Source of the DNA: a virus
Lineage: Duplodnaviria; Heunggongvirae; Uroviricota; Caudoviricetes
DNA length: 6,005 nucleotides
Strand: one strand, 5' to 3'
IMG/VR virus record: IMGVR_UViG_2698536387_000007
The position numbers and the translations under genes were made by a program. The stretch's first letter is position 1; every line of letters begins with the position of its first letter. This document shows, in pieces, positions 1 to 2,005 of this stretch. Below the pieces are notes generated by a model. The model worked only from the letters and a program-made list of their open reading frames with translations, was not told where the DNA came from and did not search any database.

Positions 1-50
1 CAGTAGGTGTTCACCGTCGGCGGGTAAGGTAAAACCAAATCTATGAGCAT
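1..50 (-). CDS. rusA: RusA-like Holliday-junction resolvase, N-terminal fragment only (gene continues beyond the window start)
   Basis: Minus-strand ATG at 50..48 preceded by GAGGTGA, 12 nt downstream of the DUF968 stop. The 16 visible codons read MLIDLVLPYPPTVNTY, matching from memory the RusA N-terminal motif (LPWPPSxNxYY). Only a fragment is visible. Confidence 0.45.
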   Translation of the reverse strand, partial: MLIDLVLPYPPTVNTY

Positions 51-62
51 CAGTCACCTCTT

Positions 63-1112
63 TTACCCGAGCACGCCAGTCGCAAAGGCGTGATCAAGAA
101 AACGAAAAATTAACTCAATCTGAGAGCCGTACTTTTTCTCAAACTCCAGCGGGTCTGCATGAAGTTCGTTGTGGTGCTCCCGGCACAACGGTAGCGTGAA
201 AATATCGTGGGCCTTTGTCCCCATTCCCCCCTGACCATGACCAATCAGGTGATGCGGATCGTCAGCAGGCTTACCACAACACGCACACGGCTGTGTCTTT
301 ACCCAGCGCGTGTATTTCTCATTAACCCAACGGCAACGTTTAGGCCGCCTCATGAACGATTCAGGAGACTCCGGATCAACGGCGATACTGACAACCGTTT
401 TTTTCTGTGGTGGATTTTGTTGCTGGTGGACGTGAAGTGGCAGCGCAATATTTTTTGTGCGCTGCTTCAGTATGCTGATGGCTGTCTGTTCTCCCGGTAC
501 GATGTCACTCTCACGGTATACGGAGCGGATTTTTTCCGCTGGTAATCCCAGCGAACGACGCGCTACTGCCTCAGGTAGTGCATCCACCACCTGATTGCAG
601 GCCGCCCACCAGGATAATTCAGCCAGCGATAATTCACGCTCCTGTGTGCCATTCATTGCGTGACGAATGACGTCAATCATCCATGCTGACAAGTTTTGGT
701 GAGCAAGTTGCTCAAGTGATTCGGAGGTCTGGTCACGCAACTGGTTGTCGCAGTGCCAGCACAACACCATTGCGCCGGTACCATAACGGTGAATGACGGT
801 TTCACTGTGGTGATAATCGCCGTGTGGCCACTGGCAGGATTTAACATGGCGCAGTAACCAGTCAGACAATGCGCCAGCGCCACCAGCAGCACGAATCACT
901 CGTTCGTCGCTGAAAAATGGCAGTAATGATTTATCCTCCGCCAGCGGCTGGCGAACGGCAGGAACGACCCCGGACGGCAGATTACGCATGCTTTTCGGTT
1001 CCGGCTCCACCAGTACCCGGGTATTGTGGAATACCGGCATGGATTCACGGCCCGGCTTAACGATCACCAGCCCGAGTTCCGGTACCAGAACAGGTCGAAG
1101 TAATACCCGCAC
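63..1112 (-). CDS. ydfU: DUF968-family prophage protein (YdfU-like) with a C-terminal Cys/His HNH-like motif
   Basis: 349-aa ORF with GTG start at 1112 and GGAGG 4 nt upstream. C-terminus carries CACCGKPADDPHHLIGHGQGGMGTKAHDIFTLPLCREHHNELH (Cys pair plus spaced His). Position after hok and a rem-like gene matches my recollection of Qin-type prophage synteny. Family assignment is from memory. Confidence 0.75.
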   Translation of the reverse strand: MRVLLRPVLVPELGLVIVKPGRESMPVFHNTRVLVEPEPKSMRNLPSGVVPAVRQPLAEDKSLLPFFSDERVIRAAGGAGALSDWLLRHVKSCQWPHGDYHHSETVIHRYGTGAMVLCWHCDNQLRDQTSESLEQLAHQNLSAWMIDVIRHAMNGTQERELSLAELSWWAACNQVVDALPEAVARRSLGLPAEKIRSVYRESDIVPGEQTAISILKQRTKNIALPLHVHQQQNPPQKKTVVSIAVDPESPESFMRRPKRCRWVNEKYTRWVKTQPCACCGKPADDPHHLIGHGQGGMGTKAHDIFTLPLCREHHNELHADPLEFEKKYGSQIELIFRFLDHAFATGVLG

Positions 1113-1113
1113 G

Positions 1114-1392
1114 TTACCTCCAGATGCGTTGCTGGAATGTGCGGGACGGACGCGGTGGGCGTTCGGAGTAAGGAAGCCTGACGGAGATTATCCAGTGACG
1201 ATAATCGAGACTGAGGGCTTTCTTAACCTCGTATCCGCGCCTGCGGTAACACTGAATCAGCCATTCAGCCTGTTCTTCGGTGCAGGGGTCGTGCTGATAC
1301 CAGTCAGATTTGAATGCATGAGAACGCCGCCCGTGCCTGCTGGCAGGGGCGGCAGAGTTATCCGAATTGTAAAATTTGGTATCGTGCGCCAT
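1114..1392 (-). CDS. Small hypothetical protein, rem-like by position (92 aa)
   Basis: The 135-aa ORF in the track begins inside the intrinsic terminator, so its first ~43 codons are unlikely to be coding. First in-frame ATG after the terminator is 1392..1390 (MAHDTKFYNSD...), with a weak SD (GAGAAAACAG). Stop lies 1 nt from the DUF968 start. Confidence 0.45.
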   Translation of the reverse strand: MAHDTKFYNSDNSAAPASRHGRRSHAFKSDWYQHDPCTEEQAEWLIQCYRRRGYEVKKALSLDYRHWIISVRLPYSERPPRPSRTFQQRIWR

Positions 1393-1461
1393 CTGTTTTC
1401 TCTGCTGGCGCAGCAGGTGCCAGTTGTTCAGGCTGACGGATGGATTGTAAACCAGAACGAC

Positions 1462-1491
1462 CAGAAAAAACAAAACCCGCCGAAGCGGGTT
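1462..1491 (-). terminator. Rho-independent terminator ending the hok transcript
   Basis: On the minus strand: stem AACCCGC, UUCG tetraloop, stem GCGGGUU (1474-1491), followed directly by UUGUUUUUUCU (1473..1462). It sits 30 nt downstream of the hok stop. Confidence 0.8.
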
Positions 1492-1522
1492 AAGTGCGGG
1501 TGCGTTGAGGATGCCTGACACA

Positions 1523-1657
1523 TCAGCGGTGGCGAGGGATTTCTCCCCCGCCTGGTAATCGTACCTCGCAGAGGTCTTTCCTCGTTACCAGTGCCGTCAC
1601 TATGACGGTTAAACAGATGACGATCAGGGCGATTAACATCGCCTTTTGCTGCTTCAT
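1523..1657 (-). CDS. hok: Hok/Gef-family type I toxin, variant with the conserved C-terminal tail replaced (44 aa; possible deletion derivative or pseudogene)
   Basis: MKQQKAMLIALIVICLTVIVTALVTRKDLCEV matches the Hok/Gef/RelF transmembrane region as I remember it. SD AAGGAGAAG lies upstream of the ATG at 1657. The ORF then reads RLPGGGEIPRHR and stops, instead of the family tail (roughly IRTGQTEVAVFxAYE). The track's longer ORF (start 1714) is an in-frame leader extension, mok-like in position. Confidence 0.8.
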   Translation of the reverse strand: MKQQKAMLIALIVICLTVIVTALVTRKDLCEVRLPGGGEIPRHR

Positions 1658-1670
1658 AACCTGCTTCTCC

Positions 1671-1699
1671 TTGCCTTTCGGCGCGTAAGAGGCTAACCT
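1671..1699 (+). promoter_or_regulatory. Candidate promoter for the Sok-like antisense RNA
   Basis: Plus-strand TTGCCT (1671-1676), 17-nt spacer, TAACCT (1694-1699). This is antisense to the hok leader and start region, at the position where the R1 sok promoter lies as I recall it. The -10 is weak. Confidence 0.35.
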
Positions 1700-1705
1700 A
1701 CGTTT

Positions 1706-1780
1706 GTGAAGCATAGATTGGGCCTCAGATTAATGTTAAGCGTCTTGCAGGACGCGTAATGTTAACTGGGGCTTTTCTCT
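1706..1780 (+). ncRNA. sok: Candidate Sok-like antisense RNA (type I antitoxin)
   Basis: Predicted start about 7 nt after the -10. The region is antisense to the hok leader, including the upstream in-frame ATG (1714..1712) and its SD. A structured segment (outer stem CCUCAG/CUGGGG at 1723-1728/1765-1770, inner stem GCGUC/GACGC at 1740-1744/1751-1755) is followed by the U-rich tail CUUUUCUCU (1771-1780). Boundaries are approximate. Confidence 0.35.
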
Positions 1781-1832
1781 GTCTGCCTTACGGTGGCATG
1801 CCCGAGGCAGACAGCCTCAAGCACCCGCAGCA

Positions 1833-1860
1833 ATTCTACTTAACTCTCGCTTTACAGCAA
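1833..1860 (-). promoter_or_regulatory. Candidate sigma70 promoter for the hok mRNA
   Basis: Minus-strand TTGCTG (1860..1855), 16-nt spacer, TAGAAT (1838..1833). The predicted start near 1826-1829 falls at the beginning of the segment complementary to the 3' fbi element. Confidence 0.45.
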
Positions 1861-1900
1861 ACCGTTTTGCCCGATATGGGAATTCCCATACGGAATGAAT

Positions 1901-2005
1901 TCAGTTCCCCAGGCGCTCCATCAAAAACACAACCAGGCAGTAAACACCCACAACAGCAATAACAGCCAGAGCGCCTTCCATTACCAGTGAAATATCATCC
2001 GACAT
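1901..2005 (-). CDS. Putative 34-aa hydrophobic small protein (MSDDISLVMEGALAVIAVVGVYCLVVFLMERLGN)
   Basis: Below the length cutoff of the ORF track. ATG at 2005..2003 is preceded by a strong SD (AAGGGAGGG, 3-4 nt spacer). It encodes one predicted transmembrane helix and ends at TGA 1903..1901. No homolog recognised. Confidence 0.35.
   Translation of the reverse strand: MSDDISLVMEGALAVIAVVGVYCLVVFLMERLGN

What the first reader, a model, noticed from the sequence alone, without database searches (positions are those of the whole stretch)
1495..1829. Long-range complementarity between the 5' and 3' ends of the predicted hok mRNA
Plus-strand 1495-1510 (TGCGGGTGCGTTGAGG) and 1815-1829 (CCTCAAGCACCCGCA) are inverted repeats about 305 nt apart. 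On the minus-strand RNA the 5' end UGCGGGUGCUUGAGG can pair with the 3' CCUCAACGCACCCGCA (9 + 6 bp with a one-nucleotide bulge), just upstream of the terminator. This matches the tac/fbi fold-back that keeps full-length hok mRNAs translationally inert. It argues that the transcript runs from about 1829 to about 1462.
Basis: seen in the sequence. Interest (0 to 1): 0.55.

Follow-up and report, generated by a model that had tools for sequence, protein, structure and literature searches.

The report
Hok toxin mRNA end-pairing (tac/fbi)
The two complementary stretches are the well-known 5'-3' "fold-back" helix that keeps full-length hok-family toxin mRNAs silent; here it sits in an ordinary O157 prophage hokD/hokW-type locus whose toxin gene carries an unusual 58-base internal deletion.

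Summary
The inverted repeat is real: 1495-1510 and 1815-1829, 9+6 bp with one bulged C. It is the only repeat of that quality in the window, and 0 of 200 shuffles produced one. [quoted passage not shown] Rfam's hok-leader model (RF01794) matches 1826->1652 at 114.9 bits. The MFE and centroid folds close the molecule with this helix. Removing the 3' end makes the 5' end re-pair with an internal box (ucb), as published for plasmid R1. Across about 18-20 hok loci from a dozen genera the helix is kept by compensatory changes at seven positions.

Two refinements. The -10 box geometry, shared by 33 of 34 loci, puts +1 at G1826. The RNA helix is 6+6 bp.

The window is otherwise 100% identical to E. 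coli O157 strain 493/89 but lacks 58 nt of the hok coding region. I found this allele in no other collection. The toxin ORF is truncated, so the fold-back here probably guards a dead gene, unless the deletion is an artefact.

Verdict: a correct reading of an already known element; low novelty.

The parts
1833..1860 (-). Putative hok mRNA promoter: -35 TTGCTG (1860-1855), 16-nt spacer, -10 TAGAAT (1838-1833)
   Evidence: Read from the sequence. A TAnnnT hexamer lies at -12..-7 from Rfam model position 1 in 28 of 34 hok loci, and in 33 of 34 within +/-1. R1 promoter mutations T-12C and T-7C show the same geometry (PMC9841398). The consensus scan did not call it, because the -35 matches only 3 of 6.
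1815..1826 (-). tac (translational activator) element: 5' end of the hok mRNA, GGGUGCUUGAGG, with +1 at G1826
   Evidence: The Rfam RF01794 match begins at 1826. It pairs with fbi in the MFE and centroid folds. There are compensatory changes at tac positions 1, 4, 7, 8, 9, 10 and 12 across loci.
1827..1829 (-).
   Evidence: It lies between the -10 box and the inferred +1. The corresponding pairs are formed in only 40% of cells in 20 loci (helix 1).
1779..1814 (-). 5' hairpin (+13 to +48) directly after tac; the position of the metastable/5' stem of hok mRNAs
   Evidence: Predicted in all folds. It is conserved with covariation in the RNAalifold consensus (columns 15-23 with 79-87).
1768..1774 (-). 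ucb (upstream complementary box / anti-SD of mok), AAGCCCC, +53 to +59
   Evidence: In the full-length fold it pairs with the mok SD region (columns 95-100 with 142-147, GC:9/AU:8). In the 3'-truncated RNA it pairs with tac nt 1-8. This is as described for R1 (PMC9841398).
1706..1780 (+). Putative Sok-like antisense RNA (about 75 nt). Promoter -35 TTGCCT 1671-1676, -10 TAACCT 1694-1699
   Evidence: Promoter read from the sequence. The RNA folds into a single-stranded 5' tail, a long hairpin and a U-rich end, -30.7 kcal/mol, z = -4.7. It is complementary to the mok SD and AUG. Its ends are not mapped here; this is an inference by analogy with R1 Sok and sokW (PMC8621323).
1712..1726 (-). mok translation initiation region: SD GAGG (1726-1723) and AUG (1714-1712). 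mok is in frame with hok
   Evidence: ORF 1523..1714. 70-aa Mok-Hok products are the commonest homologues.
1523..1657 (-). Truncated hok ORF (44 aa): Hok residues 1-33, then the foreign tail LPGGGEIPRHR
   Evidence: Pfam HOK_GEF matches profile positions 1-33 of 42 only, against 1-42 in the intact homologue.
1556..1559 (-). Deletion scar. Relative to all close relatives, 60 nt (hok codons 34/35-51, the stop codon and 4 nt) are replaced by TT. This can equally be read as an A->T change plus a 58-nt deletion.
   Evidence: Alignment to O157 PV15-279. The window matches strain 493/89 at 100.0% over 6005 nt in two pieces spanning 6063 nt. The junction is absent from 5426 E. coli genomes, IMG/VR and JGI metagenomes, and the product is absent from the protein collection.
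1531..1552 (-). 3' stem-loop GGCGGGGGA-GAAA-UCCCUCGCC; the likely protective end of the 3'-processed (truncated) mRNA
   Evidence: Predicted in all folds. It is conserved with covariation (columns 399-406 with 414-421). The role is inferred from R1.
1498..1510 (-). fbi (fold-back inhibitory) element, CCUCAA-C-GCACCC, with bulged C1504
1464..1491 (-). Intrinsic terminator: hairpin 1491-1474, U-run 1473-1464
   Evidence: Terminator scan; folds.

Best explanation
The two arms are the tac (5' end, 1826-1815) and fbi (1510-1498) elements of a hok-family type I toxin mRNA. The mRNA is transcribed on the minus strand from about G1826 to the terminator at about 1464.

In the full-length RNA the ends pair (6+6 bp, one bulged C) and close the molecule. 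This holds the leader in the conformation where the anti-SD box (ucb, 1774-1768) sequesters the mok Shine-Dalgarno sequence. As a result there is neither translation nor Sok antisense binding. Slow 3' exonucleolytic trimming removes fbi. The tac element then re-pairs with ucb, the mok SD is handed to the downstream box, and the RNA becomes translatable and a target for Sok.

Shown here: the complementarity, its thermodynamic dominance, the predicted switch on 3' truncation, family membership of the leader, and covariation of the helix across genera. Inferred from R1 and hokW work: the transcript ends, the processing, and the translational consequences.

In this particular copy the toxin ORF is truncated by a 58-nt deletion. 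The fold-back is therefore most likely an intact regulatory shell around a non-toxic gene.
For: The repeat is exact and unique in the window.

RF01794 matches 1826->1652 on the minus strand at 114.9 bits against a gathering score of 59, E = 2e-26.

The MFE and centroid folds of 1826->1462 close with nt 1-12 paired to fbi, -151.9 kcal/mol, z = -7.4. The intact homologue does the same.

The RNA truncated before fbi refolds with nt 1-8 paired to nt 53-59, matching the published tac/ucb switch (PMC9841398).

In 20 distinct tac/fbi pairs from Escherichia, Photorhabdus, Citrobacter, Kluyvera, Buttiauxella, Cedecea, Erwinia, Pantoea, Kosakonia, Siccibacter and others, the GGGUGC/GCACCC helix is 98.3% paired. 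Position 4 shows UA:11, CG:7, UG:2.

In a structure-aware reading of 18 of these loci, double changes occur at tac positions 1, 4, 7, 8, 9, 10 and 12.

An unguided MAFFT+RNAalifold run on 17 full-length mRNAs predicts the 5'-3' closing helix by itself.

G-U pairs in homologues fit only an RNA of this strand.

fbi lies 3 nt upstream of the terminator.

The locus is annotated hokD in identical O157 prophages. A 51-aa prophage relative of similar context, hokW-sokW of Sp5, has been shown to be a working type I TA (PMC8621323).
Against: No transcript ends were mapped for this sequence. +1 and the 3' end rest on promoter and terminator geometry and on homology.

The 12-bp version of the helix taken alone is only modestly unlikely: 54 of 2000 shuffles give as good a duplex somewhere in the RNA.

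A cognate versus non-cognate duplex-energy test did not separate loci cleanly, because the tac variants are too similar.

The 3' segments used were located by their pairing, so the percentage-paired values are biased upward. The compensatory changes and one search are not.

The hok ORF is disrupted, so the regulatory function cannot be exercised on a toxin in this copy.
Confidence: 0.9

Rival explanations
1. The helix is the full 9+6 bp proposed by the reader, and transcription starts at or upstream of U1829.
For: The three extra pairs exist in the DNA and lower the duplex energy from -21.5 to -27.3 kcal/mol. The MFE of 1829->1462 uses them.
Against: TAGAAT at 1838-1833 puts position 1826 seven nt downstream of the hexamer's last base (-12..-7 geometry). 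The same geometry is found in 28 of 34 loci, and in 33 of 34 within +/-1, and in R1. The Rfam model starts at G1826. The equivalent pairs are formed in only 40% of cells in 20 loci, with 15 of 20 unpaired at the innermost pair. They are also unpaired in the close E. coli/Kluyvera relatives L059 and L061.
Confidence: 0.1
2. The 58-nt deletion is not biological. It would be an assembly, sequencing or editing artefact of the window. The real locus is then an intact hokD/hokW-type system in which the fold-back has its full function.
For: The window is 100.0% identical to strain 493/89 everywhere else. The junction is found in none of 5426 complete E. coli genomes, IMG/VR or JGI metagenomes, and the product is absent from a 15-billion-protein collection. 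The junction carries a 2-nt filler (TT) rather than a clean microhomology deletion.
Against: Private inactivating deletions in toxin genes are common and are expected under selection. Nothing in the sequence itself marks it as artificial.
Confidence: 0.3
3. The inverted repeat acts at the DNA level, for example as terminal repeats of a mobile hok cassette, a recombination site or a protein-binding site, rather than in RNA.
For: hok loci are mobile and occur in many contexts, with a median of 2 and up to 11 places per E. coli genome. The arms flank the whole module.
Against: Homologues keep the pairing through G-U wobbles, which become A-C mismatches on the other strand (UG:2 at position 4 and UG:4 at position 7). 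The arms coincide exactly with the inferred +1 and with the base of the terminator. The helix has a different bulge position in different loci, which suits RNA pairing but not a sequence-specific DNA site.
Confidence: 0.02
4. The repeat is a chance complementarity with no function.
For: 9-nt inverted repeats are frequent: 16 in the window, about 8 expected. The 12-bp version is reached by 2.7% of shuffles.
Against: The 9+6 composite occurs in 0 of 200 shuffles. The equivalent pairing is found at the same place (+345 to +385, next to the 3' end) in loci from about a dozen genera, with compensatory changes.
Confidence: 0.01

Closest known systems
tac/fbi fold-back of hok mRNA, hok/sok (parB) of plasmid R1. 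Sources: Thisted 1995; Franch, Gultyaev & Gerdes 1997; reviewed in PMC9841398.
   Same: The 5'-terminal G-rich tac (R1 GGCGCUUGAGG, here GGGUGCUUGAGG) pairs with fbi just upstream of the terminator. ucb/anti-SD sequesters the mok SD. tac re-pairs with ucb after loss of the 3' end. There is an antisense Sok-like gene opposite the mok initiation region. The -10 box is at -12..-7.
   Different: Hok is only about 39% identical to HokD. mok is in frame with hok here (a 19-aa N-terminal extension), whereas from memory it is out of frame in R1. The context is a prophage rather than a plasmid. There is one bulged C in fbi. The toxin ORF is truncated in this copy.
hokW-sokW of Sakai prophage 5 (Stx2 phage) in E. 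coli O157:H7 (PMC8621323)
   Same: A lambdoid prophage-borne hok locus encoding a 51-aa Hok. It has been shown experimentally to be a type I TA, with its own sokW promoter and smaller hokW RNA species on northern blots. Related phages annotate the homologous gene as MokW/HokD.
   Different: That paper does not analyse tac/fbi (0 occurrences). I did not align the Sp5 sequence itself to the window. The window copy lacks the last 17 codons.
Chromosomal hokD (relF) and hokC (gef) of E. coli K-12
   Same: The same Hok subfamily. The intact homologue of the window's ORF is MKQQKAMLIALIVICLTVIVTALVTRKDLCEVRIRTGQTEVAVFTAYEPEE, annotated HokD by PGAP.
   Different: From memory (Pedersen & Gerdes 1999), the K-12 hokD lost its upstream regulatory region by rearrangement. 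Here the whole leader, tac, fbi and the Sok-like gene are present, and it is the coding region that is damaged.
5'-3' long-distance interactions in other type I toxin mRNAs, such as aapA/IsoA of H. pylori and dinQ/agrB (PMC6733600, PMC5066626 listed)
   Same: The same logic applies: the primary transcript is locked untranslatable by long-range or alternative pairing and is activated by processing.
   Different: These are unrelated sequences and toxins. In dinQ, activation is by 5' rather than 3' trimming. I did not read these papers in detail.

Membership tests
[quoted passage not shown] | Leader matches the curated covariance model of the hok 5' region (Rfam RF01794) | tested here: met
   114.9 bits against a gathering score of 59, full length 1-157, minus strand 1826-1652.
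[quoted passage not shown] | tac at the very 5' end pairs with fbi just upstream of the terminator and closes the full-length RNA | tested here: met
   Present in the MFE and centroid folds. fbi ends 3 nt before the terminator hairpin. The helix covaries across 18-20 loci. The transcript ends themselves are inferred, not mapped.
[quoted passage not shown] | Alternative tac/ucb pairing in the 3'-truncated RNA; ucb sequesters the mok SD in the full-length RNA | tested here: met
   The fold of 1826->1512 pairs nt 1-8 with nt 53-59. In the full-length fold, nt 55-59 pair with the GAGG region. The ucb/SD helix covaries, GC:9/AU:8. This is thermodynamic prediction only.
[quoted passage not shown] | Overlapping mok reading frame whose translation is coupled to hok | tested here: met
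   AUG at 1714 with GAGG 8 nt upstream, in frame with hok. 70-aa Mok-Hok products dominate the homologue list. Coupling itself is not testable here.
[quoted passage not shown] | cis-encoded Sok antisense RNA with its own promoter opposite the mok initiation region | tested here: inconclusive
   A plausible promoter is present (TTGCCT, 17 nt, TAACCT). The 75-nt RNA has a Sok-like shape, -30.7 kcal/mol, z = -4.7. The promoter scan did not call it and no expression data exist.
[quoted passage not shown] | Slow 3' exonucleolytic processing that activates the mRNA | not testable with these tools
   This needs northern blots or 3' RACE after rifampicin. The conserved 3' stem-loop 1552-1531 that would protect the truncated form is present.
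Hok/Gef toxin (Pfam PF01848) | Complete Hok peptide of about 50 aa: N-terminal transmembrane helix plus the C-terminal periplasmic part with the conserved Cys/Tyr (TadA-editable UACG) near residue 46 | tested here: not met
   The window ORF matches the HOK_GEF profile at 1-33 of 42 only (54.5 bits), while the intact homologue matches 1-42 (82.9 bits). Residues 34-51, including Y46, are deleted. In R1, changes at M46 and Y48, stop-codon read-through and C-terminal tags abolish toxicity. This copy is therefore a disrupted allele of a Hok gene, not an intact member.

The most novel reading that the evidence does not exclude
The 58-nt deletion is a real, selected allele. The prophage would then keep a complete hok RNA shell (promoter, tac/fbi, ucb, mok start) and a live Sok-like antisense gene, but no toxin. 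The locus would work as an antitoxin-only or RNA-decoy 'anti-addiction' module. It would buffer the cell against the several other near-identical hok copies carried by co-resident O157 prophages (up to 11 places per genome).
Probability: 0.05. Interest if true: 0.4.

Novelty: already known. Interest (0 to 1): 0.12.

Why it matters
It matters little as a discovery. End-pairing of hok mRNAs has been textbook since the 1990s, and this locus is annotated hokD in hundreds of O157 genomes.

The useful results are practical:
- The 5' end can be placed to the nucleotide from the -10 geometry.
- The copy in this window is a toxin-disrupted allele, or carries a sequence error. An annotation pipeline would miss this if it looked only at the RNA model.

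Tried and rejected
Approaches that failed or added little:
- A protein-alignment-driven locus search failed because the Hok family is too divergent to give a conserved 7-10-column stretch.
- The DNA pattern GCCTCTTAC-N8-12-CAAGGAG was too loose. Only about 25 loci carried real hok genes, which I filtered with tblastn and Rfam. Because of this ascertainment, conservation of those two motifs means nothing.
- My simple terminator finder missed many loci, so I located fbi by duplex search instead. This biases the percentage-paired values.
- The cognate versus non-cognate tac/3'-region duplex energies (-23.2 against -19.4 kcal/mol on average) did not rank cognates first for many loci, because the tac variants differ by only 1-3 nt. 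I relied on per-column compensatory changes instead.
- The search for homologous proteins returned only near-identical HokD/Mok proteins in its top 120 and gave no diversity.
- Steif & Meyer 2012, 'The hok mRNA family', is not held in the library.

Explanations rejected: a DNA-level role for the repeat, a chance repeat, and the 9+6 version of the helix (see the rival explanations).

Full report
**Observation.** On the minus strand, 1829->1815 reads UGCGGGUGCUUGAGG and 1510->1495 reads CCUCAACGCACCCGCA. The repeat finder lists the exact 9/9 arm 1495-1503 / 1821-1829 (I8). After one unpaired C (C1504 in the RNA), a second block of 6 bp follows (1505-1510 / 1815-1820). The arms are 304 nt apart. 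The 3' arm ends 3 nt before an intrinsic-terminator-like hairpin (1491-1474) with a T-run. A 9-nt inverted repeat alone is unremarkable: the window has 16, against 7.8 +/- 3.3 in shuffles. The 9+6 composite occurs once in the window and in 0 of 200 shuffles. The best duplex between the 5' 15 nt and the rest of the RNA was reached by 1 of 2000 dinucleotide shuffles. For the 14 nt starting at G1826 it was reached by 54 of 2000.

**What the locus is.** The only Rfam match in the window is RF01794 ('sok'), on the minus strand, 1826->1652, 114.9 bits against a gathering score of 59. Despite its name, the model lies in the hok-sense orientation. It covers the hok mRNA leader from its first nucleotide to the hok AUG. 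Downstream lies an ORF that begins MKQQKAMLIALIVICLTVIVTALVTRKDLCEV. It has an in-frame upstream AUG (mok) at 1714, preceded by GAGG. The 501-nt region matches thousands of E. coli genomes, where the gene is annotated hokD. Its neighbours there are a replication protein P, a DnaT-like ssDNA-binding-domain protein, and DUF1627, DUF968, RusA and antiterminator Q genes, which indicates a lambdoid prophage. A prophage relative of similar context, hokW-sokW of Sakai prophage 5, has been shown to be a functional type I toxin-antitoxin (PMC8621323).

**Folding.** The RNA from 1826 to 1462 folds at -151.9 kcal/mol (z = -7.4). Both the MFE and the centroid close the molecule by pairing nt 1-6 and 7-12 with the 3' arm. 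The intact homologue from O157 PV15-279 also does the same. When the RNA is cut just upstream of the 3' arm (1826->1512), the 5' end re-pairs with nt 53-59 (AAGCCCC). GAGG, the mok SD, moves from that box to a downstream partner. This is the published R1 pathway. In that pathway tac/fbi locks the full-length mRNA, ucb sequesters the mok SD, 3' processing removes fbi, and tac/ucb and SD/dcb stems then form. Translation and Sok binding become possible (PMC9841398).

**Covariation.** A pattern scan of one genome per species, filtered with tblastn and Rfam, gave 34 hok leaders. They came from Escherichia, Shigella, Photorhabdus, Citrobacter, Kluyvera, Buttiauxella, Cedecea, Erwinia, Pantoea, Kosakonia, Siccibacter, Trabulsiella-like and other genomes.
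- In most complete loci the first 14 nt find their best partner at +345 to +385, at the 3' end of the transcript.
- On 20 distinct tac/fbi combinations, the GGGUGC/GCACCC helix is 98.3% paired. Position 4 shows UA:11, CG:7, UG:2.
- In a structure-aware reading of 18 of these loci, double-sided changes occur at tac positions 1 (GC/CG), 4 (UA/CG), 7 (UA/CG), 8 (UA/CG), 9 (GC/UA/AU), 10 (AU/GC) and 12 (GC/AU). The bulge sits at different places in different loci.
- Those 3' segments were found through their pairing, so I also ran an unguided MAFFT+RNAalifold on 17 full-length mRNAs. It predicts the 5'-3' closing helix on its own (columns 1-7 with 455-461; position 4 UA:9/CG:6/UG:2; position 7 UA:6/UG:4/CG:3). 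It also predicts the 5' hairpin, the ucb/SD helix (GC:9/AU:8) and the 3' stem-loop.
- The G-U pairs would be A-C mismatches on the other strand, so the constraint acts on the minus-strand RNA and not on the DNA.

**Refinement of the 5' end.** A TAnnnT hexamer lies at -12..-7 from Rfam position 1 in 28 of 34 loci, and in 33 of 34 within +/-1. In the window it is TAGAAT at 1838-1833. In R1 the -10 box occupies the same -12..-7 positions, shown by loss-of-function mutations T-12C and T-7C. This puts +1 at G1826. The corresponding columns are paired in only 40% of cells across 20 loci. They are unpaired in the close E. coli/Kluyvera relatives L059 and L061. The RNA helix is therefore most likely 6+6 bp. 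In the HokD clade a further stretch (+14 to +16, and up to +19 by eye) can pair with the bases 5' of fbi, with one compensatory change (G15-C in the window, A15-U in L059). It competes with the local 5' hairpin, which wins in the MFE.

**The deletion.** The window is 100.0% identical over all 6005 nt to E. coli O157 strain 493/89, but in two pieces that span 6063 nt of that genome. Alignment to an identical O157 prophage shows that 60 nt are replaced by TT at 1558-1557. The lost segment covers hok codons 34/35-51, the stop codon and 4 nt. The change can equally be read as an A->T substitution plus a 58-nt deletion. The ORF now ends ...CEVRLPGGGEIPRHR, 44 aa in all, and matches Pfam HOK_GEF only over profile positions 1-33 of 42. 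The intact protein matches 1-42. The deleted part includes Y46 in the UACG context, the site at which hokC/D/E mRNAs are reported to be TadA-edited to Cys46. In HokB, the C29-C46 disulfide is reported to be essential for toxicity (bioRxiv 10.1101/2025.08.07.668861). In R1 Hok, changes at M46 and Y48, stop-codon read-through and C-terminal tags all abolish toxicity. The peptide is therefore probably non-toxic; this is an inference.

None of the RNA elements is touched. These are tac, the 5' hairpin, ucb, the mok initiation region, the Sok-like gene, the 3' stem-loop 1552-1531, fbi and the terminator. The fold-back persists in the shortened RNA. I found the junction in none of 5426 complete E. 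coli genomes, IMG/VR or JGI metagenomes. Neither the 63-aa nor the 44-aa product is on record. I cannot tell whether this is a private mutation or a sequence artefact.

**Antisense gene.** On the plus strand, TTGCCT (1671-1676), a 17-nt spacer and TAACCT (1694-1699) would start an RNA at about G1706. The 75 nt up to the U-rich stretch at 1773-1780 fold into a single-stranded 5' tail and a long hairpin, -30.7 kcal/mol, z = -4.7. This RNA would be complementary to the mok SD and AUG. That is the Sok architecture as I recall it, but the consensus promoter scan did not call the site and I have no expression data.

**Verdict.** The feature is the tac/fbi fold-back of a hok-family mRNA, in a locus already annotated in many genomes. 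It has been described in principle since 1995-1997, so novelty is nil and interest is low. The corrections are the start at G1826 (a 12-bp rather than 15-bp helix) and the fact that the toxin ORF in this copy is truncated by a deletion seen nowhere else.

Noticed in passing
window 1556-1559 (minus strand); compare L001:2843-2902: A 58-nt net deletion (60 nt replaced by TT) removes hok codons 34/35-51 and the stop codon. It is the only difference from E. coli O157 strain 493/89 over 6005 nt. It is absent from every collection searched.
   Followed up: yes
window 1652-1826 (minus strand): Rfam RF01794 is named 'sok antitoxin', but it matches the hok-sense strand and spans the hok mRNA leader from +1 to the hok AUG. 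The model length is 157 nt, whereas Sok RNA, as I recall, is about 64 nt. A hit therefore marks the hok mRNA 5' end, not the antisense gene's strand.
   Followed up: partly
window 1875-1890: A perfect 16-bp palindrome, TATGGGAATTCCCATA (I11), lies about 15 bp upstream of the putative hok -35 box and just after the upstream small ORF. It could be an operator or a terminator stem. It is present unchanged in the O157 homologue.
   Followed up: no
window 1901-2005 (minus strand); L001:2396-2500: A small ORF just upstream of hok encodes a hydrophobic peptide (…MSDDISLVMEGALAVIAVVGVYCLVVFLMERLGN). It is annotated as a 34-aa hypothetical protein in O157 and has no Pfam match.
   Followed up: no
L001:2880-2890 region (intact homologue); alignment A4 columns 368-387: The UACGAA around Hok codon 46, the reported TadA editing context, sits in a conserved small hairpin (UAC/GUA pairs, 17 of 17 sequences) in the RNAalifold consensus. 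This segment is deleted in the window.
   Followed up: no
L013:3300-6710 and L105:3230-4570 (Photorhabdus): There are tandem arrays of three to five hokA-like loci about 0.5-1 kb apart. Some copies have shortened Hok matches (residues 2-39) and no detectable fbi partner for their tac (best duplex only -9 to -10 kcal/mol).
   Followed up: partly
L038:970-2264 (E. whittamii) and L052:5490-6118 (Shigella flexneri): hokB-type loci lie next to the RydC sRNA gene. In E. whittamii the hokB locus is duplicated in tandem. One copy has a clear fbi at +345, while the other's best duplex is weaker and lies elsewhere.
   Followed up: no
window 1114-1521 (minus strand): The 135-aa ORF listed mechanically starts inside the fbi/terminator region. 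In O157 annotation the real gene is a 92-aa hypothetical protein that starts downstream of the terminator (L001:3067-3345). The long form is therefore probably spurious.
   Followed up: partly
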